From the NCBI GenBank assembly GCA_964544705.1, contig CAZJDA010000005.1, positions 76,661-140,660 on the forward strand: a stretch of DNA of 64,000 bases, in the 5' to 3' direction. Each line of letters begins with the position of its first letter. The first letter of the stretch is position 1. This DNA is from an uncultured Bacteroidales bacterium (GTDB lineage: Bacteria; Bacteroidota; Bacteroidia; Bacteroidales; CAZJDA01). A program made the translations under genes and the position numbers. Positions 6,765-38,769 of the stretch are shown here, piece by piece. A model generated the notes under the pieces. The model was not told the DNA's origin. It searched no databases and worked only from the letters and a program-made list of their open reading frames with translations.

Positions 6765-6770
6765 TTAAAA

Positions 6771-7660: not shown

Positions 7661-7711
7661 TGTATATCGTTTTTACAAAAATAGATTATTTCTGTTATAA
7701 ATCCAAGTGTT

Positions 7712-7949: not shown

Positions 7950-8086
7950 TTAGTGCTGTTTCATAACCTAACTTCGTATTTTTGATTCAATTTTATATAT
8001 TTTGTAGTATTATTTCGTTATTTAGCCAATTTTATGCCTGTGTTTTTTACTTACGAGACAATCCCGTGAGCATACATCAAGGTTCT

Positions 8087-8307: not shown

Positions 8308-8504
8308 CAAACTTTACAAACTTTATAAACTTTCAAACTCATCACAGTAAAAAGTTAAAAAACCAGCAGGCTATGCCAAAAATTTCAAACTCATTAAAAA
8401 CAAAAAACATCTCCTTTATTATTCCTGTTTTAATATTATTCTTTAAATTTGGCTTCGATTTTATTTCTCCTGGAGAAATCATTAAAAAAAAACAGGGGGT
8501 TGTT

Positions 8505-25900: not shown

Positions 25901-26437
25901 ATGGCCATGATCTTGCAATTCTAAGTAAAAATCTTCTCCAAAAATATCGGTATATTCTTTTAGAACAGCTTCAGCTCTTTCTATTCCATGGTTCATGATG
26001 GCTTTGGGGATTTCGCCTCCCAAGCACGCCGAGCTTGCTATCAAGCCCTCGTGGTTTTCTTTTAACAATTCTTTATCGATGCGTGGGGTGTAATATTTAC
26101 CCTCCAAAAAACCAATTGAGCAAAGTTTTGTAAGGTTCCTGTAACCGGTCTTGTTCTTGGCAAGCAATATAAGATGGTAGCCACTCCTGTCTTCCTTAGA
26201 CTTTTTTTGGAGGTGGCCGTTTCGAGCCATATAAAATTCGCAGCCAATAATGGGTTTGATGCCGTTTTCCCTGGCTTGTTCATAAAAATCGATAACACCG
26301 AACATATTGCCATGGTCGGTAATGGCAATGGAATCCATGCCATATTCTTTTACCTTGGCCATAAGCCCGCCAATATCAGCGGCGCCATCCAGGATAGAAT
26401 ATTGTGTATGTACGTGTAAATGGGTGAATTCGGACAT
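22976..26437 (-). CDS. dnaE: DNA polymerase III alpha subunit
   Basis: PHP domain start MSEFTHLHVHTQYSILDGA, GLLKMDFLGLKTL, and OB-fold tail. I prefer the ATG at 26437 over the track start at 26491. Confidence 0.95.
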   Translation of the reverse strand: MSEFTHLHVHTQYSILDGAADIGGLMAKVKEYGMDSIAITDHGNMFGVIDFYEQARENGIKPIIGCEFYMARNGHLQKKSKEDRSGYHLILLAKNKTGYRNLTKLCSIGFLEGKYYTPRIDKELLKENHEGLIASSACLGGEIPKAIMNHGIERAEAVLKEYTDIFGEDFYLELQDHGHEEQKTVNKALIELSKKHGVKLIATNDVHFINRDDAEAHDILICLNTNEDAESAERMRYTGFEYFRPVEEMKDLFADVPEAITNTVEIANKVEEYEITTKEILLPVYPIPEPFEGENEYLRHLTYEGAKKMYPEITDEVKQRLDHELNIIKEMGFPGYFLIVQDFINEARKRKVWVGPGRGSAAGSAVAFCIGITSIDPIKYNLLFERFLNPERVSMPDIDIDFDDEGRERVMDYVIEKYGKEKVAQIVTFGTMAARSAIRDVGRVLKLPLPETDKLAKLVPEGPKVKLADAYKDVKELVAALQKGEEKVRKTLDFAKTLEGSVRHVGTHACGVIIGPEALINHVPLSTAKDSDLAVTQYEGKYVESAGMLKMDFLGLKTLSILKDAVENIELRLGKKIDIENVSLEDEKTFELYQRGDTIGTFQFESDGMRSHLRELKPTSIEDLIAMNALYRPGPMDFIPTYINRKQGREKVEYPHPWLEEILENTYGIMVYQEQIMQAAQIMAGYSLGAADVLRRAMGKKILDVMAEQKKIFVKGAVDKGVDEEKAKEVFTVMEKFAKYGFNRSHSAAYSVVAYRTGYLKAHYPAEYMAAVLTHNLNDLKKVTSFMDESKRQGIPVLGPDVNESFYNFVVNKEGAIRFGLGAVKGVGEGAVEAIVKERQANGPFKSFFDLLKRINLKSANKRCIEALAMSGAFDNFKDSHRAMYFYQENNEGLTFIDKAIKHVNAVESRKNSQQPSLFGDSEEVEIPDPPMPKCEEWGKLDALKKERDVIGIYISGHPLDNFKIEIEHFCNHTVNELKELIEQKKEKEIKIGGIITSVQHKYTKKNKPMASFILEDYTDAIQLFMFSNKYVELKNYLEEGYLVLIKGKVAPNYKNKDQYEFQVNTINLLSEVMEKQAKELTIKLSVQEVSNELINQLSSLAESNKGNCSLKFKVIDPLEKITIDMYSKKYKIDCNGFLNKLTDSAKVDFSLH

Positions 26438-26667
26438 AGTATTGGGATTTTGGTGTAAAATTATTGAATTTTTTTCTGCCGGTAAAAACAAGTTTTCAAA
26501 AGTTATTAAGAGAGAATGGAGAATGCAGAGTGAAGAAGGCAGAATTTAGGAGGTAGGGGGAGTAGGAACTCTTTTTATTTAAATCAAAATAATATTTCAC
26601 AGCGACAAATTTTGGCATATGGTGGGTTTACTTTTGGAAGCAATTATAAACATTAAAAGATATCAAA

Positions 26668-27603
26668 ATGAAAAACACTAAAGCCTCTAAAACCATGTTG
26701 AGAAAATCGTTATTGAAAATGCTTACCGCTGCTGTATTTATTGTAACAATAGGTTCTTGTTCAAATCCCGAAAAATCAGGTAAAAGAGTTGCGCAGGATG
26801 AATGCGAATGCATGCAAAAAACAGGAAAAGCTCTATTTGCATTAATAGATGAATTTATGAAAAAAATTGAAGAGGAACATTATGATAAACAATGGAATGC
26901 CTTTAAGGATTATTTCACCCTTACAGATGAATTGGCTGAAAAAAATGAAGCCTGTTTAGAAAAAGCTGGATATGAAAAAATGAAAGAGAAATATTTAACC
27001 AATAAGGAGGCTATTGAAAAGTTTGAATACGCTTATAAGGCTCAGTCAGCAAATTGCGATACAACTATAATAAGCAAAAGTGGTGAAAGATTCCTGGAAT
27101 TGGTATCAAGAATAAGGAATATCAGGGATATGGAACATAAATTGAATAAGATGGTCCATTTTTCAAGCTTAAGTACTTCCTGGAATGTTTATTCCTATTT
27201 AGATGCTGATGAAGATTGGACAACGCATTATTTTGAAAATAAGGAGGAATATGACAAAATACCCAAAGATAGCCTGTCAGAGATAAAAAGAAAATTTTTT
27301 TATGGACGAAAAATGAAAACAGGTGATTTTAATAATGATGGTATTACCGACCATGCAACAATTATACAGAATTACTGGGATGGGGATAAAATAAAGTTGC
27401 TTATTGCAAATGGAGGCAACAAAGGAATGTATTTATTAGACACAAGGGGCTCTTTTGGCATAATAGAACAGGAAGAAATGGAAAATGGATTTGGAAAGGG
27501 TATTGGCGATGGCATCATGGATATGTGTAAAGAATGCGTGCCTTTTGTAATACATTGGAATGGAGAAAGATACGAAACAGGTGGATATTTTTGGTTTAAT
27601 TAG
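26668..27603 (+). CDS. Hypothetical lipoprotein (one FG-GAP-like segment)
   Basis: Lipobox TIGSCSN. TGDFNNDGITDHA resembles an FG-GAP/VCBS calcium-binding loop. Confidence 0.5.
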   Translation: MKNTKASKTMLRKSLLKMLTAAVFIVTIGSCSNPEKSGKRVAQDECECMQKTGKALFALIDEFMKKIEEEHYDKQWNAFKDYFTLTDELAEKNEACLEKAGYEKMKEKYLTNKEAIEKFEYAYKAQSANCDTTIISKSGERFLELVSRIRNIRDMEHKLNKMVHFSSLSTSWNVYSYLDADEDWTTHYFENKEEYDKIPKDSLSEIKRKFFYGRKMKTGDFNNDGITDHATIIQNYWDGDKIKLLIANGGNKGMYLLDTRGSFGIIEQEEMENGFGKGIGDGIMDMCKECVPFVIHWNGERYETGGYFWFN

Positions 27604-27640
27604 AAAAAATGTTATATTAGGATAATTATTGCATTAACTG

Positions 27641-27737
27641 GTGACGCGTCACATTTATTATTGAGAATCTATATTGTTATAATTGAGCAAATTGCCAGAT
27701 AGATGATACATTATTTCATTGTTGACTTAACACTAAG
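27641..27737 (+). repeat. ~96-nt dispersed element R3, copy a, beginning with the palindrome GTGACGCGTCAC
   Basis: About 90% identical by eye to 57555-57650 in the same orientation. It ends 14 nt before the WYL gene ATG. Confidence 0.85.
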
Positions 27738-27751
27738 AAAGCTAGGAAACC

Positions 27752-28675
27752 ATGACGAAAAGAGAATCCATATTGAGGTATATATTGATTATCAGGAAGC
27801 TTAGGAATTTCAAATATTGCACCTTCCAAGAAATCAATGATTATTTGCAATCTGAAGGCGAAATTCACGGCTACAACCTTAGCGTTTCCAAAAGAACATT
27901 CCAAAGAGATAAAAATGATATTCGATCCATTTTTAATATGGATATACAATTTGATAGTATGCATAATAAATATTTTATTGAAGAAGAACCCGATGATAGT
28001 GAAGAGTTGAGCCATAGAATGTTAGAAGCATTTGACTTGTTCAATTCGTTAAACCTTGCCCAGGGCATGAAGGAGATTATTTCTGTAGAAACCCGCAAAG
28101 CGCTCGGTACAGAGCACGTGTATGGTTTGATGCATGCCATAAAAAACCGCCACAAAATATCCTTTTTTTATTATAAATATGATGAAGAAAAGCTTACGGA
28201 ACGTGTGGCAGAGCCATTGCACCTCAAAGAATTTAAATACCGGTGGTACCTAATTGCCAATGACATAAATGGCAGGAATAAAACCATGAAAACATTTGCC
28301 CTTGACCGCATGTCTGGGTTAGATATTTTAAAAGAGAAATTTGCTGTACATGAAAAACTTGATTTCAAAGCCTATTTCTTTGATGCATTCGGGATTATAA
28401 AGCCAACAGATAAAGGGCCACGAAAAGTTGTTTTATCTTTCGACCCTTTACAAGGGCAATATATTAAGTCATTGAAGCTCCACCATTCGCAAAAGGTGCT
28501 AATAAATAATAATACGGAATACCGTGTGCAACTAAAAGTATATATTACCTGGGATTTCATACAAGAGTTAATGATGTTTGCCAACACGATGACCGTTATA
28601 GAACCTTTGGAACTAAGAGCGCAAATAAAAAGGATTTGCCGGGGGTGTTTGGAGTTGAATAAGGGGAGTGGGTGA
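27752..28675 (+). CDS. WYL-domain transcriptional regulator (HTH + WYL, BrxR/CapW-like architecture)
   Basis: The N-terminal wHTH-like region and the WYL core ISFFYYKYDEEKLTERVAEPLHLKEFKYRWYLIAND. Confidence 0.8.
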   Translation: MTKRESILRYILIIRKLRNFKYCTFQEINDYLQSEGEIHGYNLSVSKRTFQRDKNDIRSIFNMDIQFDSMHNKYFIEEEPDDSEELSHRMLEAFDLFNSLNLAQGMKEIISVETRKALGTEHVYGLMHAIKNRHKISFFYYKYDEEKLTERVAEPLHLKEFKYRWYLIANDINGRNKTMKTFALDRMSGLDILKEKFAVHEKLDFKAYFFDAFGIIKPTDKGPRKVVLSFDPLQGQYIKSLKLHHSQKVLINNNTEYRVQLKVYITWDFIQELMMFANTMTVIEPLELRAQIKRICRGCLELNKGSG

Positions 28676-28779
28676 GATTGAATGTTTTAAATTGGGATCT
28701 CTTAAACTACAATAATCAGGCTACATCTTATAAATATGGTAAAAATATGAAATAGAACTGCTTGTATTGGCCGTTAATA

Positions 28780-29217
28780 TTAAGTTGGGATTGGATATAA
28801 TATAATTTCAAAATCAAAACTATCTTTTATTTCTTTAAACAACGCTGATTTTGCAATTTTATTAATACCTTCTTTTTCTGAAATAAAAACGAAAGTTTTA
28901 AAATCCATTTGATTATTTTTTTTAAACACCAAAAATTTTAGTATATCTTTATAAAACTCATGGTGAGGGTTTGTCCCAGAAACTTTTAGTTCATACGCTA
29001 TTTTCTTCTTAGAATCAACCAAATCAATTTTTTCATTTGATTTATCACTTATCGGAACCTCTACAGATATCTCCGGATATTTTTCTTTCGGAAATTTTTC
29101 TTGCCATAATTTAGTTATTATTTGTGATCTTTTTGTCCTTTTTGAAACATCACTTTTGCCTTTTGGGTTCTTGGCAAAAATGGATTTAAGTGGACTAACA
29201 ATATCTTTAATTTCCAT
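28780..29217 (-). CDS. Small protein with a possible PD-(D/E)xK nuclease motif
   Basis: 145 aa. IDLVD-(7 aa)-YELKV fits D...ExK spacing. It is the last gene of a tightly packed four-gene operon (4-nt gap to the exonuclease gene). Confidence 0.45.
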   Translation of the reverse strand: MEIKDIVSPLKSIFAKNPKGKSDVSKRTKRSQIITKLWQEKFPKEKYPEISVEVPISDKSNEKIDLVDSKKKIAYELKVSGTNPHHEFYKDILKFLVFKKNNQMDFKTFVFISEKEGINKIAKSALFKEIKDSFDFEIILYPIPT

Positions 29218-29221
29218 AATC

Positions 29222-29716
29222 TTAATGTTTTATTAATTTCATATACAATTCAGCACAAGCCCTTGCATCAGAAAGGGCTTCATGATGTTTTAATGCAATG
29301 CCTTCAATTGCGCAACACTCATCCAATGTACCTGAAGGATATTTATCAATTCCCCGGCAATATTTCATTGTACACTCCCACCTGTCCGGAATATTTAATT
29401 CTGAATAGTCAAAACCATTATCCGCCATTGATTTCCGTAATGCACTTCTGTCAAAAGATTCATTGTGAGCAACAACAATTTTAGCGGTTAACCGCTTTTT
29501 AATCTCAGGATAAATTTCAATAAACGGAAGTGCGTTCTCGGTATCTTCAGGTGTTATGCCGTGAACCTGCATACAATGCCAATTATATTTGTTATTTGGT
29601 GGTTTAACCAGGGAAAAGTATTCTTCAATTATTTTGCTATTTTCAACCGTAACAATGCCTACGGCGCAAATGTGGTGGTAAATAGCGGTTTCGAAGTCGA
29701 TTGCTGTGAAGGTCAT
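29222..29716 (-). CDS. DEDDh 3'-5' exonuclease (DnaQ/epsilon-like)
   Basis: ExoI AIDFETA, ExoII VAHNESFD, ExoIII HHEALSDA. Confidence 0.85.
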   Translation of the reverse strand: MTFTAIDFETAIYHHICAVGIVTVENSKIIEEYFSLVKPPNNKYNWHCMQVHGITPEDTENALPFIEIYPEIKKRLTAKIVVAHNESFDRSALRKSMADNGFDYSELNIPDRWECTMKYCRGIDKYPSGTLDECCAIEGIALKHHEALSDARACAELYMKLIKH

Positions 29717-29719
29717 GTA

Positions 29720-32077
29720 TTAAATTTTATTAGAGTTCTTCGAATGGTTTAATAGAAAATCTTTGAGTTTTTCTAATGATACATTATCATGCTTTATCCA
29801 TTCCTTATTTTCATTCAGCTCTTCCAAAAAATCCCTTGTGTTCCATCTAAAAGGTTTCTTATCAGAAGTAAACTCGATATCCCATCCCCAGAAAAAGTCA
29901 ACACCTTCTAATTTTTGCTCACTTACAATGACTTGGTTATCTACCAATTTCGATAAAACACTATTCCGTTTATCCCCAACAACATATTTTTTCCAGTTTG
30001 CATTTGCTCTTGGAGGATACAGGCAATGTTTCCCATGCATCCATTTTAATTGACATCCTCCGACAATAAGTGATAATAGATTTGTACATACAAGTTCCCT
30101 ATGGATTGTTTTATTTTCTTCAATGAATGTTTCATCTGGTCTCGCTTTTATTTTTTGCAAATTCATAAGATTATTGTCCAATAAACAACCTACAGGAACT
30201 AACCATTTTTCCTTGGTTAATATATTTTTCCATGCTGAAGCCTTGTTTTCATAGACAATATCCCAAAACTGACCCCAATTATTGAAATGTGAAATGAGGT
30301 TTCGGAGGAGAATAGCATCTTTTTTATACTCATCTTCAACACCTTGTTTATTAAAAAACATCTTACATTTTTCAAACCTATTATCAAATTTATCCCAATC
30401 ATATTCATTATTACCAGTCCTAAATAAAAAACGAATAGCACCTTTAAAAAAGGCTGTATTTTCTGCTTCTATTATCTTATCTTCCCAAGATTTGCCATCT
30501 GAGTCCTTCCAATGTGAGTTATCCAATATTTGTCTGGCTTTTTCCTTTTCTTCCTCCATTTGCTCTTTTGCAAAGTCTTTTGAAACATCACGGTCTCTAA
30601 GATGATTGAGTATATCATGAGAATTATCCGCCAATTCATTAATTAAGCGCATAGCTCCGATCATTTTTTGAATTGAGTCAATATCAGCATTCTCAACAAT
30701 ATTCCAAACAATCCTTATCCAACGCATCAAACTTTTCTTTTCATAATCACCTTTTTCAAAATAGCAACATATAGCATGGAATACAACTCTTTGTGATTGA
30801 GTTATAGTAGTAGGGAAATATTTTTCTCTATCTTCGTCCTTTTTATATCCAGGGATAAATCTAAAATCGGAATTATCCTCCCAATTCGGAAAAAAAAGTT
30901 CATTTATTTCATCTGTTGATGCCCCATTAAAAACATTATGAAAGCGATCAAGTACTTTTTCCAATTTTTCTAATCCTTCCTTAATTACTGACTTTTCCGA
31001 TTCGTAAAGATCAAATCCATTATATCGAATATTAACATCATTTCCTCTATCCCCGTACAAATACTTGAATAATTTATTGTTTTTTTCAGGATCACTAAGA
31101 AATCTTTGTTCTTCCGCTTTTGCTGTTATCAAAAGATTAAGCCAAAACCGATTAATAAAAGCAAAGTAAGCTTTATCAATTTCAGATTCTTGAGACCTGT
31201 ATTTCCAAAAAATATTAGTCCATGTTGTGTCTAACTTATGTTCGATTGTTTCTACAGGAACTTTATTTTGCTGATCGATATTTTTCTCAGTTTCTCCTAT
31301 ATATCCAACAAGATCAGCCTTAAAATTCTCGAAATTGCTTAATGGCTTTCCCCTGGCATTCATTTTAATATACAGATCATCGGATAAGCTCAAATCCAAT
31401 AAATCAATATAATAAAATATAATCGGACAATAGTCTCCTGTTAATTTTTCCCAATATTTTTTGAAGTCACCTTTCACACAGCCCTCGAATATTTCATCGA
31501 AACCATCTATTATTTCGTTTTCCTTATCATCTTTAATGGAATTACCGCCAAGCATGTTCATCATTGCCTGAATAGTTGGGTCTTGTTTCCAGGATGAAAA
31601 AAACCATGTTTGGTTTTTGATTGTTTGTACTATATTGTCGGTTTCGATTGACTCAAAGTCAGAAAGTTTATTGCAAAATTCTCTTGATGTTGTTCGTGTT
31701 TCATAGGTGAATTTTTTAAAAACCCCCCTATTATTTTGCAACTCCCCTGATTTAAAGGCAATATACCAATATAACAGCCATAGAGTTGTTAAACGCTGTT
31801 GTCCATCGAGCGGATTTAACCGGTTATTTTCAACGCTCCCATAAACAAAATCCAATTTTAAAGGTTTATTATCTTTTTCATCTTTCTTATCTAAGGCTGT
31901 TTTTATATCTGTAAGAAACTTTTCACGTAACTTTTCTTTACCTATTCTTCCCTGGGCATAATCACGTTGTATAATCGGAATTTCAATTTTTCGATGTTCA
32001 TTTATTAAGAAAGCCCAAAATGTTGTTTGTTGAATATTATTGTTTTTCATTATTTTCTTTTTCTGGTAAAAATTCAT
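29720..32077 (-). CDS. DUF262 (ParB/Srx-like NTPase) protein without a recognisable DUF1524 nuclease
   Basis: IPIIQRDYAQG and LDGQQRLTTLWLL lie at the N-terminus. I cannot assign the long C-terminal region. The start may be the internal ATG at 32050. Confidence 0.8.
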   Translation of the reverse strand: MNFYQKKKIMKNNNIQQTTFWAFLINEHRKIEIPIIQRDYAQGRIGKEKLREKFLTDIKTALDKKDEKDNKPLKLDFVYGSVENNRLNPLDGQQRLTTLWLLYWYIAFKSGELQNNRGVFKKFTYETRTTSREFCNKLSDFESIETDNIVQTIKNQTWFFSSWKQDPTIQAMMNMLGGNSIKDDKENEIIDGFDEIFEGCVKGDFKKYWEKLTGDYCPIIFYYIDLLDLSLSDDLYIKMNARGKPLSNFENFKADLVGYIGETEKNIDQQNKVPVETIEHKLDTTWTNIFWKYRSQESEIDKAYFAFINRFWLNLLITAKAEEQRFLSDPEKNNKLFKYLYGDRGNDVNIRYNGFDLYESEKSVIKEGLEKLEKVLDRFHNVFNGASTDEINELFFPNWEDNSDFRFIPGYKKDEDREKYFPTTITQSQRVVFHAICCYFEKGDYEKKSLMRWIRIVWNIVENADIDSIQKMIGAMRLINELADNSHDILNHLRDRDVSKDFAKEQMEEEKEKARQILDNSHWKDSDGKSWEDKIIEAENTAFFKGAIRFLFRTGNNEYDWDKFDNRFEKCKMFFNKQGVEDEYKKDAILLRNLISHFNNWGQFWDIVYENKASAWKNILTKEKWLVPVGCLLDNNLMNLQKIKARPDETFIEENKTIHRELVCTNLLSLIVGGCQLKWMHGKHCLYPPRANANWKKYVVGDKRNSVLSKLVDNQVIVSEQKLEGVDFFWGWDIEFTSDKKPFRWNTRDFLEELNENKEWIKHDNVSLEKLKDFLLNHSKNSNKI

Positions 32078-33941
32078 TTAACACTTTTTTAATATTCTCC
32101 TTGTATGCTTCGGCATCTTCTTGATTCCACTCTCGTAAATTATTTGTGGAAGGATTGTAGTACTTCAAAAATACATTTTTTGTGCATGGGGGAACAAAAG
32201 CAACTTCTCCTTCTTTTTGCTCAATTTGTAGGTACTCATCAACCAAAATTGATTTTCCCTGGTCTTTTCCAATGATGGCTCTGCGTTTTGCAGGGAATAT
32301 TGAATTACCATAACTTTTATTTGTCGAACTATCAAGTAATGTAAAGTTCCAGATTTTGTTTTTATCAGTTTCACTTAGTTTTGAGCTATTATCTCTAGCA
32401 ATTATTTTTTCATGCAATTTTTCAAAAATGTCGTTCTCATTCTTTTCACTATTCGCATCATCATTTAAAAATTCGATTATCTTTTTTTTCAAGTCTTCGT
32501 TCTCCAAGCCTATTGAAGATGCTTTTAACCATTCTTTTTGCTGTTCCTTATTCCCTAAGGAATTTTCGGTGCTCGAATCAACATGCTCAACATCCCATTT
32601 TTCTTTTTTGAAAAGATGAAATGGAAATTTATAGAAAACAGGGAGCTTGTATTTCTCATTTTCTATTAAAGCCTTGCTTTGATTAATGACAGTTTGAATG
32701 TTATGAAGCAAAAGAAGCGTTCGACATTGTGTTTTGGGTTTTCCATTTACATCATATTCTTTATCTAAGTCAGAAAAGGATGACATTTTGTTTTTTATCT
32801 CAGATTTGATGTAATCAATAAAATCATCCTTTCTTTTGCTTTTTTTCCATTCTCCAAGCATATCAGAAATTCTACTTCCTTGTTCAGATAGAAAACCTAC
32901 ATAATGATATAATTCTAAATCATTAAACCATTCGTTAAAAGTCTGAAATAATTCTTTTACTTTTCCCCAAGATGTTGAAATGTCGACTTCCTTTTGCTTT
33001 TTAAACCAAGCATAAAAATATCTAAATGTTTTGTATTCATCATCGCCAACCTCCTTTTGTTCCTCATCATTAAGGTTAAGCATATTGTTTTTACAGATTA
33101 AGTCAAAGATAAAATCTATACGTGTGGGTTTATCATAATTGATTTCATTTAGAAAGAGCCAAAACTCATCATTTTGCAGAGTAAATTCAATATAATCCCA
33201 TTCTCCTGCGATCTCTTGTTGTTGCAATCTTATTTTTTGATAATCAGCATTTTTAAAATTTGATTTATTAAGGAATAGTGCTTTAATAAGTTCTGAATTT
33301 GTAAGGGCTATTTTCCCAATATTTAATCTGGTAAAAACTTTTATGGGATCCTCATCTATTGATTCATACCAAATAAATTTCACATTGCCTAAAAGAATCT
33401 TCAAATAGTTGTTTTTGAACTGATTGCTTTCTCTTCCCTTTTCACTAAACCAGTCTGATATTTGCGAATGAGCTTCATAAATATGATGATAATCAATATT
33501 GTCATCTTTTTTAATTCCCTCAATTTTACTTAGAAACTTTTTACTATCGGGTCTTGTCTCATATTCTATCTCATATTCTTTCTTATTTAGATATACAAGC
33601 AAAATAAAAATAGTAGTTAGTCGCTGTTGTCCATCGATAACTTCCCATCGCGAATATTCGTTAATTATTTTTTCTGTTTTGCTTATCAGATTATTCTTGT
33701 CTGTTGGATCAAGCTTTTTAAGCTCATTGCAATAATGCTCTTCATATATAATGTTTTTCTTAATAACAAGAGGTTGAATGCAATAGAAACCTCCTATTTT
33801 TTTTTCTATAGACTCATTAATATCATCCAATAAATCTTTTACTTGTTGCTTAGTCCAGCGATAACCTCTTTGATATTTAGGAATAAAGAAATTCATTCCT
33901 GATAATTCACTTATTGATTTTAATTCAATCTTATTTCTCAT
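32037..33941 (-). CDS. GmrSD-family type IV restriction enzyme (DUF262 + DUF1524 His-Me finger)
   Basis: N-terminal motifs are IPKYQRGYRW and DGQQRLTT. C-terminal motifs are WDVEHVDS and NFTLLDSSTNKSYGN. Confidence 0.85.
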   Translation of the reverse strand: MRNKIELKSISELSGMNFFIPKYQRGYRWTKQQVKDLLDDINESIEKKIGGFYCIQPLVIKKNIIYEEHYCNELKKLDPTDKNNLISKTEKIINEYSRWEVIDGQQRLTTIFILLVYLNKKEYEIEYETRPDSKKFLSKIEGIKKDDNIDYHHIYEAHSQISDWFSEKGRESNQFKNNYLKILLGNVKFIWYESIDEDPIKVFTRLNIGKIALTNSELIKALFLNKSNFKNADYQKIRLQQQEIAGEWDYIEFTLQNDEFWLFLNEINYDKPTRIDFIFDLICKNNMLNLNDEEQKEVGDDEYKTFRYFYAWFKKQKEVDISTSWGKVKELFQTFNEWFNDLELYHYVGFLSEQGSRISDMLGEWKKSKRKDDFIDYIKSEIKNKMSSFSDLDKEYDVNGKPKTQCRTLLLLHNIQTVINQSKALIENEKYKLPVFYKFPFHLFKKEKWDVEHVDSSTENSLGNKEQQKEWLKASSIGLENEDLKKKIIEFLNDDANSEKNENDIFEKLHEKIIARDNSSKLSETDKNKIWNFTLLDSSTNKSYGNSIFPAKRRAIIGKDQGKSILVDEYLQIEQKEGEVAFVPPCTKNVFLKYYNPSTNNLREWNQEDAEAYKENIKKVLNEFLPEKENNEKQ

Positions 33942-34207
33942 TATATCATTCCCTCTAAATTTAACTTCTAATTTCGCTTTTTTTAGTAATTAATGCCTTA
34001 AATTTATACTAAAAATTTGTAAATATTTTCTTATGACAAATTTAACAATAATTTTAACTCTGGTTGCTTTTTATGACTATTTTAATGATTTTTTTAAAAA
34101 GAATATATTAACATTAGTAAGCCATCTTTTCCAAATTCTATATTTCCCATCCAGCCCATGAAAAACACCCTAAATCAATAAATTGATTTTTTTAAATGAC
34201 TACATCA

Positions 34208-35788
34208 TCAGAATTTATTAATTCCTATCATCTCAACTAAATCTTCCTGTTTAGCCCCATTGGGATAAATCACTTTTGCCAAGCGAACAAGGTTCCTGAT
34301 TTCCCTGCCGTTTAATTCGATTTTTGACACTTCTGAAAAACCATCTTGAATATTAATATTCGCTTTCTCGCATTTATCTTCCCAAATTTTTTCTCTTGTT
34401 TTTTCATCTAAATCAGGATATTTAATTTTTAAGGTAATTCTTGAATGGATAGCAAAATCGAGTACTTCCGGCCTGTTTGACGTTAAAAACATTACACCTC
34501 TAAAATAGTCCATAAGCCGTAAAAACACTCCCACAATGGCCGTTCTGTTTAAGTCACTTTTTTCTCGTTTCGCAAGAAAAACATCGATTTCATCAAACAA
34601 TACAATGGCATTCCATTTTTCAACTCGTCTAAAAATAGTGGTTAGGCTATTTTCTATACTGTTTAAGTCTGTGCCCAGTTCACTAAAATCTACAGCGTAT
34701 AGTGGCATCTGTTGCATTTCAGAATATACTTCGGCAGTAGATGTTTTCCCAATTCCCGGATTACCCGCTGCAAGTATAATCATACCTCCATGTTTATTAT
34801 CTAATACATCGCCAATAAAAGAATCTATTGATGTAGAAAACACGGTTGTTAAAAGTTTTGTAATATTCTTTGGAAGAAAAATTCTTTTATGTGCCTCTGT
34901 ATCATAAACGTAATCAGTTAAATTATTCACATTTGCAAAAAAATACTTTTTTTGTAAAAAGGAAAACACCCGTACTAATGGTAGTGAAGTATAATGATTT
35001 TTATTAACTTCCTGGTTTCTATTTGAATTATCTCTATATTCTAGCTCTGATTCTATTATTATTCTCTCTTTAATTTTATTGTGACCAATTTTAATGAAAA
35101 TACAATCATCATTATAATAATTTCTACCAAGCATCCTTACACCAAATCCACTGTATAGCATTTGCTTTTTTGTATCTCTTATTTTTTTAAGATATGATAA
35201 TGAATCTTTATGTTTTTCGAGATCACACTGTTGCGGACGACAACCAAACTCGGCAAACAGCTCCTTTAATGTTGGTTTTCTCATTTTCCCATCGGCAGCA
35301 AGTAAGTGTTCTTGCTCAATTTTAAAACCAATATTAATATATTCATAACCAAAACTAACTTTGACGTCAACAAAAACAAAAGCCTTCATATATCTTGTAG
35401 CCGGGTTGAATATAGGTATTGCAATTATAGGAAACCATGTTTTATTGAATAAGATATCTGCGTTTACTTTTTTTACACCTATTCTTGAAAAACATTCAAC
35501 AACATCAGCCAATTTTCTGATCTTTGTATCCCATACTTCATTGATTTGCGAAATTTCAATGTTTTCGCCTAAAAGTTCCATGCTTAAAAGCGCTTTTGTT
35601 TTATTCGCAATGTTGTTTGAATTTTTCAAAAAGAATGATAATAACGATACAGAAATAGAATTACTGTCTATGTCAACAAAACGGCTTTCTGCATTTTGGT
35701 AATTACCAATTTCTTGCTGGTCAGAATTACTTAAGTCCAGCTCTTCTTTAGCTTTATTTAAAAGCGCTTTCTTAATTTTAATATTCAT
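34208..35788 (-). CDS. AAA ATPase (classical AAA clade) with uncharacterised ~330-aa N-terminal region
   Basis: Walker A AAGNPGIGKTSTAE, Walker B IVLFDEIDVF, sensor-1/second region of homology FLTSNRPEVLDFAIHSRI, then LKIKYPDLDEKTREKIW. Confidence 0.85.
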   Translation of the reverse strand: MNIKIKKALLNKAKEELDLSNSDQQEIGNYQNAESRFVDIDSNSISVSLLSFFLKNSNNIANKTKALLSMELLGENIEISQINEVWDTKIRKLADVVECFSRIGVKKVNADILFNKTWFPIIAIPIFNPATRYMKAFVFVDVKVSFGYEYINIGFKIEQEHLLAADGKMRKPTLKELFAEFGCRPQQCDLEKHKDSLSYLKKIRDTKKQMLYSGFGVRMLGRNYYNDDCIFIKIGHNKIKERIIIESELEYRDNSNRNQEVNKNHYTSLPLVRVFSFLQKKYFFANVNNLTDYVYDTEAHKRIFLPKNITKLLTTVFSTSIDSFIGDVLDNKHGGMIILAAGNPGIGKTSTAEVYSEMQQMPLYAVDFSELGTDLNSIENSLTTIFRRVEKWNAIVLFDEIDVFLAKREKSDLNRTAIVGVFLRLMDYFRGVMFLTSNRPEVLDFAIHSRITLKIKYPDLDEKTREKIWEDKCEKANINIQDGFSEVSKIELNGREIRNLVRLAKVIYPNGAKQEDLVEMIGINKF

Positions 35789-35791
35789 TTT

Positions 35792-36091
35792 TTATGTTTT
35801 AATTTTTAAACCAATATCTTCGGCAATTGATTTCCAATATCTATTATGATTATTTTCAAGTCCGGCAATTGCATGCGCAATTTCATGTAATATAGTATTT
35901 TGGATTTCATCGATAGGATCTAACAGAGAGTGCTGATAGTTTAATTTTATAGCTTCATCGGTGCAGTAGCCCAGTTTTAAACTATCATTTGAAAATCCAA
36001 AATCTAAATAATCCACATCGAATTTTACCATCAAGTGATTAGCTAAAGCGATTACTTCCAAAATTTTTTCATTTATTACAAATTGTGCCAT
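35792..36091 (-). CDS. SprT-like HExxH zinc metallopeptidase (minimal, 99 aa)
   Basis: FGFSNDSLKLGYC...IKLNYQ...TILHEIAHAI...NHNRYW follows the SprT-like layout. It overlaps the upstream gene by 23 nt and lies 3 nt before the AAA gene. Confidence 0.6.
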   Translation of the reverse strand: MAQFVINEKILEVIALANHLMVKFDVDYLDFGFSNDSLKLGYCTDEAIKLNYQHSLLDPIDEIQNTILHEIAHAIAGLENNHNRYWKSIAEDIGLKIKT

Positions 36092-36659
36092 AAGTTCTAA
36101 ATAATGACTCTAAAAGTATATAAGCTTCTTCATCTACATTTTTATAATATTCCGGAAATGGTATATTTTTATTCCTATCTGTGATTTCATATTTTGCAAC
36201 ATGGCAATTATAATTATCCAGTTGATTTAGTGCATCATTTGCCATATTATTCTTTTTATTGCCTTCAAATGATGCCGGCAAAGTAACTATTATAGAAAAA
36301 TGCTTACCGGTTTCAGACAAAAACTCAGATAAGCGTAAAGAGAATTTGGTTCCTGTATATCCTCCCAAACCGGCTACAAGAATATAATATTCATTTTCAT
36401 TAAATATATCCATTATTTTGCCCGGCACTATCAAAGGAACACTTTTATCTGTCCAGGCTTCCGGGTACCTGGTATTTTTAAAATGCTCATCTAAGGGAGG
36501 CTGAAACTCCATGAGATTTAAACCCATTGGATTTGAAAAGCGTTCCGGCCGAGATACACAAGTGTACCTGCCATGTAATCCTTTCTTAAAAGTATGTTCC
36601 AAAATCATAGAACCTGCCTGGCCTAAACCAATAAAATGAAAATTTTTGAATGACTTCAT
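36069..36659 (-). CDS. FtsZ/tubulin-like GTPase domain protein, C-terminally truncated (196 aa)
   Basis: The motifs fall in FtsZ order and spacing. FIGLGQAGS corresponds to GVGGGGxN. [10 protein letters not shown] corresponds to [20 protein letters not shown] corresponds to KPFxFEGxKR. YEITDRN corresponds to ITIPNDK. The protein ends around helix H7, before the T7 loop. Confidence 0.7.
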   Translation of the reverse strand: [196 protein letters not shown]

Positions 36660-36909
36660 ATCGTAAAAATTAAATGATTTTTGTATAAAATTACTTCAAA
36701 CAGACTTCATTATTAATTGAATCTATCCTATTTTTCACAAATATAAACCCCCAAGGTGTCAAAACATGTCGCAGTAATTTGGAAAAGGATTTTTTCTATT
36801 TTATGATTCCTATTGGCACTTCTCACTTTAGTTACCTATCTGCAATATTTTTTGTATATTTGAATAGAACTTCAATCAATAGTAACAAACGGAATAACTA
36901 CAAAGTAAA

Positions 36910-37053
36910 ATGGATCTATCCAAATCATTGTTTTGGGATACGGATATCAATAAGGTTGATTACGAGAAACACGCCCGTAAGATTATAGAAAGGGTTTTGA
37001 TGCGTGGAACTTTAGACGACTGGTTTGAAATAAAACGCTATCCTATTTTATGA
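36910..37053 (+). CDS. 47-aa ORF translationally coupled (ATGA overlap) to the PLD nuclease gene
   Basis: Manual translation gives MDLSKSLFWDTDINKVDYEKHARKIIERVLMRGTLDDWFEIKRYPIL. Its stop TGA (37051-37053) overlaps the ATG at 37050. It is below the track length cut-off. Confidence 0.35.
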   Translation: MDLSKSLFWDTDINKVDYEKHARKIIERVLMRGTLDDWFEIKRYPIL

Positions 37054-37568
37054 GTACCAAATTCATTACCAACGAACAACTTTATCAACAAGTTATAGAA
37101 CCCATTATTCAGGCTAAAAAGTTCTTATGGATTGGTACGGCAGATATAAAAGACTTGCACGTTAAGCACCAAGGGGCGGTAAGGTCATTTCTTGCTGTAC
37201 TCGATTCATTGATACGGCGGAAGGTAGCTGTCCGGCTTTTGCATGCCAAAGAACCGGGGCCTAATTTCCGCAAGAGTTTTGATAAATATCCCGGCCTATG
37301 GAGTGGGTTGGAGCGCCAGCTTTGCCCCAGGGTGCATTTTAAGATCATCGTGATAGACGGCAAACTGGCATACACAGGCTCTGCTAATTTAACAGGCGCC
37401 GGGTTAGGCATAAAAAGCCCCAACCACCGCAATTTTGAATCCGGCATCGTAACAACCAACCCTCAAATGATTGACGAGATCATGCAACAATTTGACGAAG
37501 TATGGATAGGAAAACACTGCAAAAATTGCAAAAGAAGAAGTTATTGCTTGGATCCTATTGATACATGA
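37050..37568 (+). CDS. Phospholipase D-family (HKD) nuclease, Nuc-like single-domain
   Basis: The HxK(x4)D(x6)GSxN motif appears as HFKIIVIDGKLAYTGSANLT. At 172 aa it has the size of the homodimeric Nuc-type enzymes. The C-terminus has a CKNCKRRSYC cysteine cluster. Confidence 0.8.
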   Translation: MSTKFITNEQLYQQVIEPIIQAKKFLWIGTADIKDLHVKHQGAVRSFLAVLDSLIRRKVAVRLLHAKEPGPNFRKSFDKYPGLWSGLERQLCPRVHFKIIVIDGKLAYTGSANLTGAGLGIKSPNHRNFESGIVTTNPQMIDEIMQQFDEVWIGKHCKNCKRRSYCLDPIDT

Positions 37569-37639: not shown

Positions 37640-37720
37640 TGTTGAGTTTGAAAGTTTGTAAAGTTTTTAAAGTTTGAAAATGTTGGTTTAGCTTGCTTTT
37701 TCTTTAACGTTTTACTGCCA
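37640..37720 (-). repeat. Inverted partial copy of the R2 tail / R1 head module
   Basis: The reverse complement matches ACAGTAAAA.GTT...AAGAAAAAGCAAGCTA.ACCAACA.TTTCAAACTTTA.AAACTTTACAAACTTTCAAACTC seen at about 8240-8340. Confidence 0.7.
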
Positions 37721-38214
37721 GAAGTTAATAAAGTTCACGAAAAGCGCGTCATTTCGAACCTGCGGAGCAAAAGGCATGCAGGGATTAGGCAAGGAGAAAC
37801 CTGCTTGCCCAGTGCAGCGCAGCAAACAAAATCTTATAACCCACGGTGGCTGAAATCTTTTGGTTAAGTGCAGTGGAGCGAATAAAATTTTTCAGCCACT
37901 AAGACCCAAAGGCTCTAAGATTCTCTAAGTATACATATTGCAGTGCATTCAGCAATATTCCTCAAAGACCATCCTCCGCTGGCCCTTTGATTCCCTGCTG
38001 TGCTTCGCTAAAGCTACGCGACAGCGAAGAAGGGAGGCCAGCGCACCGCCATTAAAATTTTCTTAAAGCCTTCCAGGCTTTTGGGCTTGCCTGTTTTCCT
38101 AGCCCAGGGCGTTGCCCTGAACTTTGATGCCAGAGCCTTACCGGCTTTTTGGGTTTTGTTTCCTTTAGCGAAAATTTTTGAGTGCACTGCATTTTATACC
38201 TATCAATATGGGCA

Positions 38215-38459
38215 ATATAGAAAAGCCCTGTAAGGGCGCAACAACAAAGTCCTGGGCGAAGTCCGGGGGTAAATGAAAAGAAAATACACCCCGCCGACCT
38301 GGTGTTGTAATTTTGTTGTACACAATTTGCATCGGCGGGAATTGTATACAGTTAGCAACATATGTTCACCATACTCACCCGGTGAATTGTTCATAAAATG
38401 CTCAGCACTCAGCACATGTAAAATTTTTATTGCATTGGCTTGATATTCACCGGGTGACA
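38215..38459 (-). repeat. Inverted modular homologue of R1 copy b
   Basis: The reverse complement starts GTCACCCGGTGAATATCAAGCCAATGCAATAAAAATTT (near-identical to 6771-6808). It keeps the ATTCACCGGGTGA arm, the CCCGCCGA...TCGGCGGG stem and the CGCCCTTACAGGGCTTTT module, with divergent spacers. Confidence 0.75.
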
Positions 38460-38650
38460 TTTAATAAAGCCTACTGTTTCTTTAACTTTCATGTTTTGTT
38501 AAACCTGATGGCATATAATCCACTAAAATCTTAATTTTTTCTTCCTTTGTGAAGAAAATAAAGCTTTTTCGATTTCTAATGTTTAGTCCTGAAATAAATT
38601 TACTTTTTCTTTCCATTTTTTTTTGTAAACCTATACCAGGACGAGACAAA

Positions 38651-38686: not shown

Positions 38687-38698
38687 TAGCGCTGTTAG

Positions 38699-38769
38699 AG
38701 GTCTCGAGCGGATTCGAACCGCTGTGAAAGGTTTTGCAGACCTCCGCCTAACCACTCGGCCACGAGACC
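38699..38769 (-). tRNA. tRNA-Cys (anticodon GCA)
   Basis: Minus-strand sequence is GGTCTCGTGGCCGAGTGGTTAGGCGGAGGTCTGCAAAACCTTTCACAGCGGTTCGAATCCGCTCGAGACCT. It has a 7-bp acceptor stem, the anticodon loop CTGCAAA and the T-loop GGTTCGAATCC. It was folded by hand. Confidence 0.85.

What the first reader, a model, noticed from the sequence alone, without database searches (positions are those of the whole stretch)
28780..33941. GmrSD-type enzyme in an operon with a second nuclease-less DUF262 protein, a DEDDh exonuclease and a small PD-(D/E)xK-like protein
The four minus-strand genes overlap or are 3-4 nt apart. The overlap is 32037-32077, and the gaps are 29717-29719 and 29218-29221.

The first gene has both DUF262 (QRGYRW, DGQQR) and DUF1524 (EHVDS, NFTLLDSSTNKSYGN), which is the canonical type IV, modification-dependent architecture. 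The second gene keeps only DUF262 plus about 550 aa of unassigned sequence. It is followed by a stand-alone 3'-5' exonuclease (DFET/HNESFD/HHEALSD) and a 145-aa protein with a D...ExK pattern.

A DUF262 protein that may have outsourced its nuclease to separate exo- and endonuclease subunits would be an unusual variant of the GmrSD theme. Alternatively, these are two stacked systems.
Basis: partly seen in the sequence, partly recalled or inferred. Interest (0 to 1): 0.65.

Follow-up and report, generated by a model that had tools for sequence, protein, structure and literature searches.

The report
Two-protein GmrSD-type restriction operon
Two always-adjacent DUF262 genes, one carrying the nuclease and one without it, form a widespread unnamed two-protein relative of the GmrSD/TgvAB anti-phage restriction enzymes; the small exonuclease beside them travels with a WYL regulator gene, not with the enzyme pair.

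Summary

- **Core pair.** Gene 1 (634 aa) is a GmrSD-family protein with DUF262 and a DUF1524 His-Me finger. Its family keeps E452-H453 and N532/N541/N546 invariant. Gene 2 (785 aa, probably 776) has DUF262 plus a family-specific C-terminal half with no nuclease signature. Gene 1 sits directly upstream of gene 2 in 79 of 80 genomes; the 80th contig is cut there. Their divergence is tightly correlated (r = 0.83). So this is one two-protein system, not two stacked systems. The nuclease partner of gene 2 is most likely gene 1, as in TgvAB of Vibrio cholerae. Sequence similarity to TgvA/TgvB stops at DUF262.
- **Exonuclease.** The DEDDh gene recurs in 24 of 80 loci but tracks the WYL/WCX regulator: 23 of 34 loci with WYL against 1 of 46 without (p = 8e-11). 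A close relative follows an McrC gene.
- **145-aa gene.** It has a PD-(D/E)xK-like fold and motif but never recurs with the pair (0 of 160 loci). Elsewhere it directly follows WYL genes.

Verdict: a new variant of a known kind, in a WYL-controlled defence island. No function was tested.

The parts
32037..33941 (-). Gene 1, 634 aa. GmrSD-family protein: DUF262 NTPase domain (QR 24-25, DGQQR 103-107, FTRLNIGK 203-210), helical middle, and DUF1524 His-Me finger (E452-H453; N532, N541, N546). The nuclease-bearing subunit.
   Evidence: In the family alignment A3, W449, E452, H453, N532, L535, L536, N541, N546, K552 and R553 are invariant. 14 of 21 members match Pfam GmrSD_C. The family profile matches DndI 9jfl (2e-14, both ends), SspE and BrxU in the PDB.
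29720..32077 (-). Gene 2, 785 aa as the longest ORF; the likely start is 32050 (776 aa). DUF262 with intact QR/DGQQR/NARG motifs, an SspE-like helical region, and a family-specific C-terminal region of about 350 aa. No nuclease motif. The nuclease-less subunit.
   Evidence: AlphaFold2 model has pLDDT 83. Foldseek finds only SspE and DndI. hhalign against the gene 1 family aligns only the DGQQR region. The C-terminal 386 aa occur only in this same architecture, in 935 50%-identity clusters.
29222..29716 (-). Gene 3, 164 aa. Stand-alone DEDDh (DnaQ-like) 3'-5' exonuclease. An accessory gene linked to the WYL regulator.
   Evidence: Pfam RNase_T 5.8e-20 and PADLOC DEDDh 2.4e-26. PDB matches to the PolC exonuclease domain 2p1j, ISG20 and DnaQ. 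Present in 24 of 80 loci, 23 of them with WYL. Relatives at 70% identity or more sit as WYL-g1-g2-DEDDh.
28780..29217 (-). Gene 4, 145 aa. Small protein with a restriction-endonuclease-like (PD-(D/E)xK) fold and motif (E53, D65, E76-x-K78). A sporadic passenger or WYL-linked gene, not part of the conserved system.
   Evidence: Family of 53 proteins with E53, D65, D68, E76 and K78 invariant. Model pLDDT 94. All top Foldseek hits are PD-(D/E)xK nucleases, but E is 0.04 or higher. Absent from all 160 related loci. Follows WYL+WCX genes in L085, L090 and L091.
27752..28675 (+). WYL+WCX transcription factor gene (307 aa, BrxR/CapW type), convergent with the operon. The probable regulator.
   Evidence: Pfam WYL 1.3e-14 and WCX 2.2e-8. 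PADLOC WYL 9e-31. A WYL gene is present in 34 of 80 g2-anchored loci. Homologues 42-50% identical lie downstream of g2 or g3 in L002, L005, L073, L107 and L109.
33942..34207 (-). 266-nt A+T-rich spacer upstream of gene 1. Presumed promoter and operator region of the operon (inference only).
   Evidence: Sequence read. Contains an imperfect inverted repeat at 33998-34045. The sigma-70 scan was no better than shuffles.
37050..37568 (+). PLD/Nuc-like nuclease gene (172 aa). In other genomes the same family sits directly after gene 2. A possible further accessory gene.
   Evidence: Pfam PLDc_2 2.7e-14. Homologues 54-61% identical occur in 14 of 80 loci, directly after g2 in L007, L014 (after each of two pairs), L026, L034 and L059.
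34208..35788 (-). AAA+ ATPase gene (526 aa) directly upstream of gene 1, the last gene of a tubulin-like/SprT-like/AAA+ trio. A neighbour of uncertain relation.
   Evidence: Pfam AAA 1.3e-14, and PADLOC IetA-like 2.7e-14. An AAA+ of similar size lies beside the pair in 16 of 80 loci, but only the ATPase module aligns.

Best explanation
The locus combines two blocks.

**1. Effector pair.** Genes 1 and 2 form an obligate two-protein member of the GmrSD/SspE/DndI superfamily. Both subunits keep the DUF262 (ParB-like) NTPase motifs. Only gene 1 carries the DUF1524 His-Me finger that cuts DNA. Gene 2 replaces it with a family-specific C-terminal domain.

By analogy with TgvAB, I infer that the two proteins form a hetero-oligomer. 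In that model, nucleotide-dependent DNA sensing by both DUF262 domains licenses the single nuclease of gene 1 to cut foreign DNA, probably base-modified phage DNA. The C-terminal domain of gene 2 would help sensing.

**2. Regulatory and accessory block.** This block holds the WYL/WCX transcription factor, the DEDDh 3'-5' exonuclease, and here also the small PD-(D/E)xK-like gene. WYL repressors of the BrxR/CapW type release their operator when short ssDNA binds with its 3' end docked in the WYL-WCX pocket (PMC11662680). I infer that the exonuclease trims or removes that ssDNA signal, which would set the threshold or reset the switch. It would not serve as the outsourced nuclease of gene 2.

The 145-aa gene is a sporadic addition. 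It belongs to the same WYL-linked pool of small nucleases.

**Shown:** domain content, conserved catalytic residues, obligate pairing and co-divergence of genes 1 and 2, and the WYL-DEDDh linkage.

**Inferred:** complex formation, modification dependence, the regulatory role of WYL at this operon, and the role of the exonuclease.
For: **Pairing**
- A g1 homologue lies immediately upstream of g2 in 79 of 80 GTDB species genomes, with gaps of -98 to +54 nt. The 80th contig ends at the g2 start.
- The same holds in 12 metagenome loci found through gene 3 and on two plasmids.
- Many loci hold the pair alone.
- Two different pairs sit side by side in L014 and L058.
- Pairwise identities of g1 and g2 correlate at r = 0.83 over 3486 locus pairs. 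The figures for g1 against DEDDh and g1 against WYL are 0.35 and 0.46.

**Nuclease in g1 only**
- The g1 family has E452-H453 and N532/N541/N546 invariant.
- GmrSD_C matches 14 of 21 g1 members.
- The g1 profile matches DndI, SspE and BrxU.
- g2 members match GmrSD_N only, in 20 of 20, and have no invariant His.
- Foldseek on the g2 model finds only SspE and DndI.

**Precedent**
- TgvA (DUF262 only) and TgvB (DUF262+DUF1524) are both required for defence. DGQQR mutants of either one abolish it.

**WYL-DEDDh link**
- DEDDh is present in 23 of 34 loci with WYL and in 1 of 46 without (Fisher p = 8e-11).
- The order WYL then DEDDh, directly adjacent, occurs in 15 loci.
- At least two DEDDh lineages are involved. 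The window's lineage is nested among exonucleases found in housekeeping contexts.
- A 70%-identical DEDDh directly follows an McrC gene in L104.
- The CapW-regulated CBASS operon of E. coli upec-117 carries the 3'-5' exonuclease Cap18.
- CapW binds ssDNA with its 3' end docked.

**Gene 4**
- It directly follows WYL+WCX genes in L085, L090 and L091.
Against:
- Gene 1 has every domain of the single-chain enzymes (Eco94GmrSD, BrxU) that work alone, so the requirement for gene 2 rests on synteny and on the TgvAB analogy.
- The best solved relatives of g1 and g2 are the phosphorothioate-sensing SspE and DndI, not hmC-specific enzymes, so the DNA feature recognised is unknown.
- In the window the WYL gene is convergent and 104 nt beyond gene 4, not upstream of the operon. 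I found no shared operator between its own upstream region and that of gene 1.
- A catalytically dead Cap18 did not change lambda defence, so a regulatory exonuclease may have no plaque phenotype.
- In 12 loci DEDDh also abuts g1 or g2. In the window's own lineage it follows g2 with WYL at the far end. This fits an effector-level role equally well.
- Locus counts are not corrected for shared ancestry.
Confidence: 0.55

Rival explanations
1. Integrated multi-nuclease system. The DEDDh exonuclease, and in other genomes the PLD nuclease, metallophosphoesterase or HAD phosphatase, acts at the effector level. It would degrade or process the DNA ends made by the g1-g2 enzyme so that cut phage DNA cannot be repaired. 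WYL would merely be the shared regulator.
For: - DEDDh abuts g1 or g2 in 12 loci, and it follows g2 by 0-6 nt in the window's own lineage.
- PLD follows g2 directly, including after each of two pairs in L014.
- Several end-processing enzymes recur near the pair: metallophosphoesterase in 10, RtcB in 7 and HAD_SAK_2 in 5 of 80 loci.
- A close DEDDh follows McrC, another type IV system.
Against: - 56 of 80 loci have no DEDDh, and many hold the pair alone.
- DEDDh presence depends on WYL (23/34 against 1/46).
- DEDDh divergence is only weakly tied to that of g1 and g2 (r about 0.35).
Confidence: 0.17
2. Two stacked independent systems. Gene 1 is a self-sufficient single-chain GmrSD enzyme. Gene 2, with or without genes 3 and 4, is a separate defence gene that happens to be co-transcribed.
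For: - Gene 1 has the complete GmrSD architecture.
- Single-chain GmrSD and BrxU work alone.
- DUF262 genes are known to cluster near GmrSD homologues (PMC4619093).
Against: - Adjacency holds in 79 of 80 loci, with a fixed order and overlapping stop and start codons.
- The two genes co-diverge at r = 0.83.
- The C-terminal domain of gene 2 never occurs in any other architecture.
- TgvB also looked self-sufficient but needs TgvA.
Confidence: 0.1
3. The pair is an SspE/DndI-like sensor of a host DNA modification, or a nicking and abortive system, not a type IV enzyme that cuts modified phage DNA.
For: - The best solved relatives are DndI (2e-14) and SspE for g1, and SspE and DndI for the g2 model.
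- PADLOC SspE models match both proteins weakly.
Against: - No dnd or ssp modification genes appear among the recurrent neighbours of 80 loci.
- The PADLOC matches to SspE cover only part of DUF262.
- A close DEDDh relative pairs with McrBC, a classic modification-dependent system.
Confidence: 0.1
4. Gene 2 has lost its nuclease and uses the DEDDh exonuclease and the 145-aa PD-(D/E)xK protein as separate nuclease subunits.
For: - The four genes are tightly spaced in the window.
- Gene 2 has no nuclease domain.
- Both small genes encode nuclease folds.
Against: - Gene 4 is absent from all 160 related loci.
- Gene 3 is absent from 56 of 80 loci.
- Gene 2 always has the nuclease-bearing gene 1 beside it.
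Confidence: 0.03

Closest known systems
TgvAB of Vibrio cholerae VPI-2 (two-protein GmrSD-like type IV restriction system; PMC11411939, PMC11014532)
   Same: - Two adjacent genes: one DUF262-only protein and one DUF262+DUF1524 protein.
- Both proteins keep DGQQR.
- In TgvAB both are required, and the His-Me finger residues are essential.
   Different: - Similarity to TgvA and TgvB (first 400 aa each) is confined to DUF262 at 24-26% identity.
- No entry in the stored part of the published TgvAB hit tables carries the QRGYRW or QRDYAQG motifs of this family.
- The gene order is reversed, with the nuclease-bearing gene first.
- The nuclease-less partner has a family-specific C-terminal region not found in any other architecture.
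- The pair is not embedded in a type I R-M operon.
- It is often accompanied by WYL and DEDDh genes.
GmrSD (E. coli CT596 GmrS+GmrD; single-chain Eco94GmrSD) and BrxU
   Same: Gene 1 has the same DUF262 - helical linker - DUF1524 layout and the same H...N...N catalytic residues.
   Different: - Those enzymes are either single chains that act alone or a DUF262 protein plus a DUF1524 protein.
- Here a complete chain is always paired with a second DUF262 protein.
- Pfam GmrSD_C is below threshold on the window's own protein.
SspE and DndI (phosphorothioate-sensing DUF262-DUF1524 nucleases; PDB 6jiv, 7drs, 9jfl)
   Same: They are the closest solved structures by sequence profile (g1) and by fold (g2 model).
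   Different: - No ssp or dnd modification genes lie in the window's island or among the recurrent neighbours.
- g2 lacks the nuclease domain.
BrxR/CapW family of wHTH-WYL-WCX repressors, and the CapW-linked 3'-5' exonuclease Cap18 of E. coli upec-117 CBASS
   Same: - A WYL+WCX regulator lies next to a defence operon that also carries a small stand-alone DEDDh exonuclease.
- The YRW(Y/H) motif is conserved.
   Different: - Cap18 is only 24% identical to gene 3, and CapW only about 16% identical to the window's WYL protein.
- The effector there is CBASS, not a GmrSD-type pair.
- The WYL-exonuclease link is a single described example there. Here it is a statistical association.
Menshen NsnA, PD-T4-2 and Dazbog (other DUF262-containing defence systems; PMC12065111)
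   Same: They share the ParB-like DUF262 followed by a helical DNA-binding region.
   Different: - No PADLOC model of these systems matched either protein at E <= 0.01.
- No ABC ATPase or BECR effector partner is present.

Membership tests
GmrSD family (gene 1) | N-terminal DUF262/GmrSD_N with QR, DGQQR and FxxxN motifs | tested here: met
   Pfam GmrSD_N 1.5e-30. The motifs lie at residues 24-25, 103-107 and 203-207 and are invariant in 21 orthologues.
GmrSD family (gene 1) | C-terminal DUF1524/GmrSD_C His-Me finger with H...N...N | tested here: met
   The window's protein is sub-threshold (E = 0.035). However, 14 of 21 orthologues match GmrSD_C (best 6.5e-6). H453, N532, N541 and N546 are invariant. 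The C-terminal motif aligns to DndI and SspE.
GmrSD family (gene 1) | NTP-stimulated cleavage of modified (hmC or glc-hmC) DNA only | not testable with these tools
   This needs enzyme assays or phage challenge.
GmrSD family (gene 2) | C-terminal DUF1524 nuclease domain | tested here: not met
   0 of 20 members match GmrSD_C. There is no invariant His beyond the N-terminal domain. hhalign against the gene 1 family aligns only 61 columns around DGQQR.
TgvAB | Operon of one DUF262-only and one DUF262+DUF1524 protein | tested here: met
   here. The TgvAB architecture is described.
TgvAB | Sequence homology to TgvA and TgvB along the protein | tested here: not met
   BLASTP with the first 400 aa of each matches only DUF262, at 24-26% identity. 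The family motifs are absent from the published hit tables. The C-terminal parts of TgvA and TgvB were not available.
TgvAB | Embedded in a type I R-M operon | tested here: not met
   None of the ten island genes scanned (26668-37568) matches a type I R-M (Hsd) domain in Pfam. No Hsd family is among the annotated recurrent neighbours.
TgvAB | Both proteins required for defence | not testable with these tools
   Only indirect support: 79 of 80 loci show adjacency and r = 0.83 co-divergence.
DEDDh (DnaQ-like) exonucleases (gene 3) | Exo I (DxE), Exo II (NxxFD) and Exo III (Hx4D) motifs | tested here: met
   D7-x-E9, N85-x2-F88-D89 and H145-x4-D150. Pfam RNase_T 5.8e-20 over the full model.
wHTH-WYL-WCX repressors (BrxR/CapW) | WYL domain followed by a WCX domain in a protein of about 300 aa | tested here: met
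   Pfam WYL 1.3e-14 (residues 125-191) and WCX 2.2e-8 (residues 223-298) in 307 aa.
wHTH-WYL-WCX repressors (BrxR/CapW) | Binds a palindromic operator at the regulated promoter and releases it on ssDNA binding | tested here: inconclusive
   A perfect palindrome, GTGACGCGTCAC, lies upstream of the WYL gene but not upstream of gene 1. Its only other copy is upstream of metH. Binding itself is not testable here.
PD-(D/E)xK nucleases (gene 4) | Restriction-endonuclease-like fold with a D...(D/E)xK active site | tested here: inconclusive
   E53, D65, E76 and K78 are invariant in 27 aligned homologues. The model has pLDDT 94. The top Foldseek hits are XisH, NucS/EndoMS, SgrAI and Can2, but E is 0.04 or higher and the probability is at most 0.89. 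The only Pfam hint is SMEK_N at 0.0024.
Catalogued defence systems (PADLOC-DB 2.0) | Full-length match to a system-specific model | tested here: not met
   g1 gives only partial N-terminal matches to the Orf5, HEC-06 and SspE models. g2 gives two weak partial matches. g4 gives none.

The most novel reading that the evidence does not exclude
WYL/WCX defence regulators have dedicated partner nucleases. These would be a DEDDh 3'-5' exonuclease in most cases and the 145-aa PD-(D/E)xK protein in others. They would make or destroy the short ssDNA ligand of the WYL domain, forming a portable sense-and-reset module. That module would plug into different effectors: this DUF262 pair, McrBC, CBASS, or AAA-protease/PDDEXK_4 sets.

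Separately, the C-terminal domain of gene 2, which is found only in this family, could be a new reader of DNA modification that gives the two-protein enzyme its specificity.
Probability: 0.2. Interest if true: 0.7.

Novelty: new variant of a known kind. Interest (0 to 1): 0.48.

Why it matters
- **A large unnamed family.** Two-protein GmrSD-type enzymes are known from a single characterised family, TgvAB. This pair is a second family. The C-terminal part of gene 2 alone defines 935 clusters at 50% identity. The pair occurs across Bacteroidota, Spirochaetota, Cloacimonadota, Lentisphaerota, Bacillota and Campylobacterota, and on plasmids. Databases call both proteins only 'DUF262 domain-containing protein'. 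Naming and testing it would improve defence-system annotation, especially in gut Bacteroidales.
- **A comparison case for a mechanistic question.** Why does a seemingly complete GmrSD chain need a nuclease-less paralogue? This family gives a second system in which to ask.
- **A testable role for an unexplained exonuclease.** The strong WYL-DEDDh linkage suggests a role for stand-alone exonucleases such as Cap18, which sit in WYL-regulated defence operons and have no known function.

Tried and rejected
- **Cryptic nuclease in gene 2.** I looked with Pfam at E <= 10 on the C-terminal 528 aa and with Pfam on 20 family members. I also tried a PDB sequence search and a PDB profile search, hhalign against the gene 1 family, and Foldseek on a pLDDT-83 model. 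Nothing turned up beyond DUF262 and an SspE-like helical region. The beta-hairpin plus helix at residues 402-433 (FRFIPGY...QRVVF) could be a dead His-Me relic, but no tool aligned it, so I do not claim it.
- **Gene 4 as a homing endonuclease.** I considered this because one homologue lies between dnaB and a DnaB_C-like gene and another between nuoE and nuoF. I dropped the split-dnaB idea after reading L086, where DnaB is complete at 531 aa.
- **Promoters and terminators.** The sigma-70 and terminator scans of 27.5-37.2 kb were no better than shuffles.
- **A shared WYL operator.** The search found only the palindrome upstream of the WYL gene and a second copy upstream of metH.
- **Other databases.** PHROGs gave nothing for genes 2 and 4. 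No phage record encodes a gene 2 relative.
- **The upstream AAA+ gene.** Its relation to the AAA+ genes that recur beside the pair could not be shown beyond the ATPase module.


Full report
**1. Observation**

The four minus-strand ORFs lie at 32037-33941 (634 aa), 29720-32077 (785 aa), 29222-29716 (164 aa) and 28780-29217 (145 aa). Every quoted motif is present.

Pfam finds GmrSD_N in gene 1 (1.5e-30) and gene 2 (1.4e-21), and RNase_T in gene 3 (5.8e-20). In gene 4 it finds only a weak SMEK_N hint.

Two refinements:
- The public protein collection and all homologues begin gene 2 at MKNNN (window 32050, 776 aa). The overlap is then 14 nt.
- GmrSD_C on the window's own gene 1 is sub-threshold (E = 0.035).

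The region has low G+C (0.29-0.33 against 0.35-0.44 in the flanks). It lies between dnaE and a tRNA-Cys gene.

**2. Gene 1 is a GmrSD-type nuclease**

I aligned 21 orthologues taken from other genomes.
- The DUF262 motifs are invariant, as are W449, E452, H453, N532, L535, L536, N541, N546, K552 and R553.
- 14 of the 21 reach Pfam GmrSD_C.
- A profile of the family matches DndI (9jfl, 2e-14) at both the N-terminal domain and the C-terminal N...LLD...N...N motif. It also matches SspE and BrxU.

**3. Gene 2 has no nuclease**

Thousands of full-length homologues of 740-850 aa exist. In 20 aligned members:
- The N-terminal QR, DGQQR and NARG motifs are invariant.
- No His is invariant in the C-terminal half.
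- None matches any Pfam family except GmrSD_N.

An AlphaFold2 model (pLDDT 83) matches only SspE and DndI in the PDB. Profile-profile comparison with the gene 1 family aligns 61 columns around DGQQR and nothing else.

The C-terminal 386 residues were searched against 1.8 billion cluster representatives. They gave 935 hits, almost all in proteins of the same length with the match at the same position. This domain therefore exists only in this architecture.

**4. Genes 1 and 2 are one unit**

A scan of one genome per GTDB species returned 80 loci encoding a gene 2 relative at 31-59% identity.
- In 79 of them a gene 1 relative lies directly upstream on the same strand, with gaps of -98 to +54 nt. 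The 80th contig starts at gene 2.
- Many loci contain the pair and nothing else that recurs.
- L014 and L058 carry two divergent pairs side by side.
- Pairwise identities of the two genes correlate at r = 0.83 over 3486 locus pairs. The figures are 0.35 for gene 1 against DEDDh and 0.46 for gene 1 against WYL.
- The pair also occurs on plasmids of Aliarcobacter faecis and Chryseobacterium balustinum, annotated only as 'DUF262 domain-containing protein'.
- No phage record encodes it.

These results exclude the 'two stacked systems' reading. They also make gene 1 the obvious nuclease partner of gene 2.

**5. Comparison with the known two-protein system**

TgvAB of V. cholerae consists of TgvA (DUF262 only) and TgvB (DUF262+DUF1524). 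Both are required. DGQQR mutants of either one, and His-Me mutants of TgvB, abolish defence against T-even phages.

The first 400 residues of TgvA and TgvB were taken from the paper's Table S5. They match genes 1 and 2 only within DUF262, at 24-26% identity. No entry of the stored tables contains the QRGYRW or QRDYAQG motifs.

PADLOC has no full-length model for either protein, and no PD-T4-2, Dazbog or Menshen match.

So the window's pair works like TgvAB in architecture but is a separate family. Its gene order is reversed, and it has its own C-terminal domain on the nuclease-less subunit.

**6. The exonuclease**

Gene 3 relatives occur in 24 of the 80 loci. That is far above what a few DEDDh genes per genome would give by chance.

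Their presence follows the WYL gene:
- 23 of 34 loci with a WYL gene have DEDDh, against 1 of 46 without (Fisher p = 8e-11).
- In 15 loci the order is WYL then DEDDh, with gaps of -34 to +82 nt.
- DEDDh abuts gene 1 or gene 2 in 12 loci.

A second survey started from gene 3 itself, in metagenomes.
- 12 of the 21 relatives at about 68% identity or more lie in the order WYL-g1-g2-DEDDh, as in the window.
- Five contigs are too short to tell.
- Four have other upstream genes. One of those is McrC, part of another modification-dependent restriction system (L104).
- Relatives at 56-64% identity sit next to DUF2851, RNase HII, cystathionine beta-synthase and permease genes, with no defence genes nearby.

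In a neighbour-joining tree the window's lineage is nested among these. The Bacteroidales WYL-DEDDh lineage is separate, at a mean of 39% identity. The association therefore seems to have arisen more than once.

A described precedent is Cap18, a 3'-5' exonuclease in the CapW-regulated CBASS operon of E. coli upec-117. Its catalytic mutant did not change lambda defence. It is only 24% identical to gene 3.

**7. The 145-aa gene**

Its family is small, with 53 proteins. E53, D65, D68, E76 and K78 are invariant.

The model is confident (pLDDT 94). Its best matches are all restriction-endonuclease-fold proteins: XisH, NucS/EndoMS, SgrAI, OkrAI, Can2 and viral restriction enzymes. None reaches E <= 0.001.

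It is absent from all 160 related loci. Elsewhere it:
- directly follows a WYL+WCX gene with an 8-nt overlap (L085, L090, L091);
- lies between dnaB and a DnaB_C-like gene (L086, L087);
- lies between nuoE and nuoF (L081-L083);
- lies among transposases (L084).

In the window it is the gene next to the convergent WYL gene. I treat it as a sporadic, possibly WYL-linked addition and not as a subunit of the DUF262 system.

**8. Wider neighbourhood**

These families recur within 8 kb of the pair in the 80 loci:

| Neighbour | Loci |
|---|---|
| WYL | 34 |
| DEDDh | 22 in this clustering (24 by BLAST) |
| AAA+ of about 557 aa | 16 |
| PLD nuclease | 12 in this clustering (14 by BLAST) |
| Small metallophosphoesterase | 10 |
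| Unknown 173-aa protein | 10 |
| RhuM | 8 |
| RtcB | 7 |
| DUF6557 | 6 |
| HAD_SAK_2 | 5 |
| dnaE | 4 |

The window holds WYL, DEDDh, a PLD gene 54-61% identical to those that follow gene 2 elsewhere (37050-37568), and an AAA+ gene directly upstream of gene 1. That AAA+ shares only its ATPase module with the recurrent ones.

**9. Mechanism**

*Shown:* one nuclease-bearing and one nuclease-less DUF262 protein are inherited as a unit. Both keep the NTPase motifs.

*Inferred from TgvAB, BrxU and SspE:* they form a hetero-oligomer in which nucleotide-dependent DNA sensing licenses the His-Me finger of gene 1 to cut foreign, probably modified, DNA.

*Inferred from CapW:* CapW binds short ssDNA with the 3' end docked between the WYL and WCX domains, and then leaves its operator. 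By analogy, the WYL protein would control expression, and the 3'-5' exonuclease would act on that ssDNA signal.

The main rival is that the exonuclease and the PLD nuclease finish off cleaved DNA. I could not find an operator shared between the WYL gene and gene 1. The promoter and terminator scans were uninformative.

**10. Verdict**

The finding is a new variant of a known kind: a large, unnamed family of two-protein GmrSD-type systems. It comes with a statistically strong and little-described link between WYL regulators and a small DEDDh exonuclease. All functional statements remain untested.

Noticed in passing
window 34208-36659 (-): Three abutting genes lie upstream of gene 1:
- a 196-aa FtsZ/tubulin-like fragment (Pfam Tubulin 8e-7, below cut-off; contains GLGGYTGT);
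- a 99-aa SprT-like metalloprotease;
- a 526-aa AAA+ ATPase (IetA-like in PADLOC; PHROG 29662 at 1e-43).

They may form a separate ATPase-plus-protease defence module.
   Followed up: partly
window 37050-37568 (+); L014 9923-10465 and 16570-17145; L007, L026, L034, L059: A 172-aa PLD/Nuc-like (DrmC-like) gene sits directly after gene 2 in several genomes, at 54-61% identity. In L014 it follows each of two different g1-g2 pairs. This suggests a g1-g2-PLD three-gene form.
   Followed up: partly
window 27628-27735 and 57542-57649: A 108-nt direct repeat (85% identical, 29.9 kb apart) contains the perfect palindrome GTGACGCGTCAC.
- One copy is just upstream of the WYL gene.
- The other lies between a SAM riboswitch (57771-57867) and the metH start codon (57522).

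Its meaning is unknown.
   Followed up: partly
window 6200-8400 and 37640-38470; tRNA-Cys 38698-38769 (-): A set of 40-210-nt repeats, partly spaced 671 nt apart, lies at 6.2-8.4 kb. It recurs in inverted orientation at 37.6-38.5 kb, right between the PLD gene and a tRNA-Cys gene at the edge of the low-G+C island.
   Followed up: no
L024, L034, L059, L070 and window 22976-26491: dnaE (DNA polymerase III alpha) lies within a few kb of the DUF262 pair in four other genomes as well as in the window. It may mark a recurrent insertion site for this island in Bacteroidales.
   Followed up: no
L104 3-1277 and 1282-1788; L105 1044-6114; L085 209-6276: A DEDDh gene 70% identical to gene 3 directly follows an McrC gene.

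Another such gene precedes an AAA/M41-peptidase-like gene, a PDDEXK_4 gene and a metallophosphoesterase gene. The first two families (AAA/M41-peptidase-like and PDDEXK_4) also accompany the WYL-gene 4 pair in L085.
   Followed up: partly
L003, L013, L016, L018, L037, L041, L046 (RtcB); L018, L026, L037, L051, L058 (HAD_SAK_2): RNA-repair-type genes recur beside the WYL-DEDDh-g1-g2 cluster in Bacteroidales: RtcB ligase, the HAD domain of 'Swiss Army Knife' repair proteins, and DUF6557.
   Followed up: no
gene 2 family, residues about 127-203: The family profile weakly matches a phage baseplate 'Wedge 1 protein' (9cuy_O, E = 0.002). This is probably chance.
   Followed up: no
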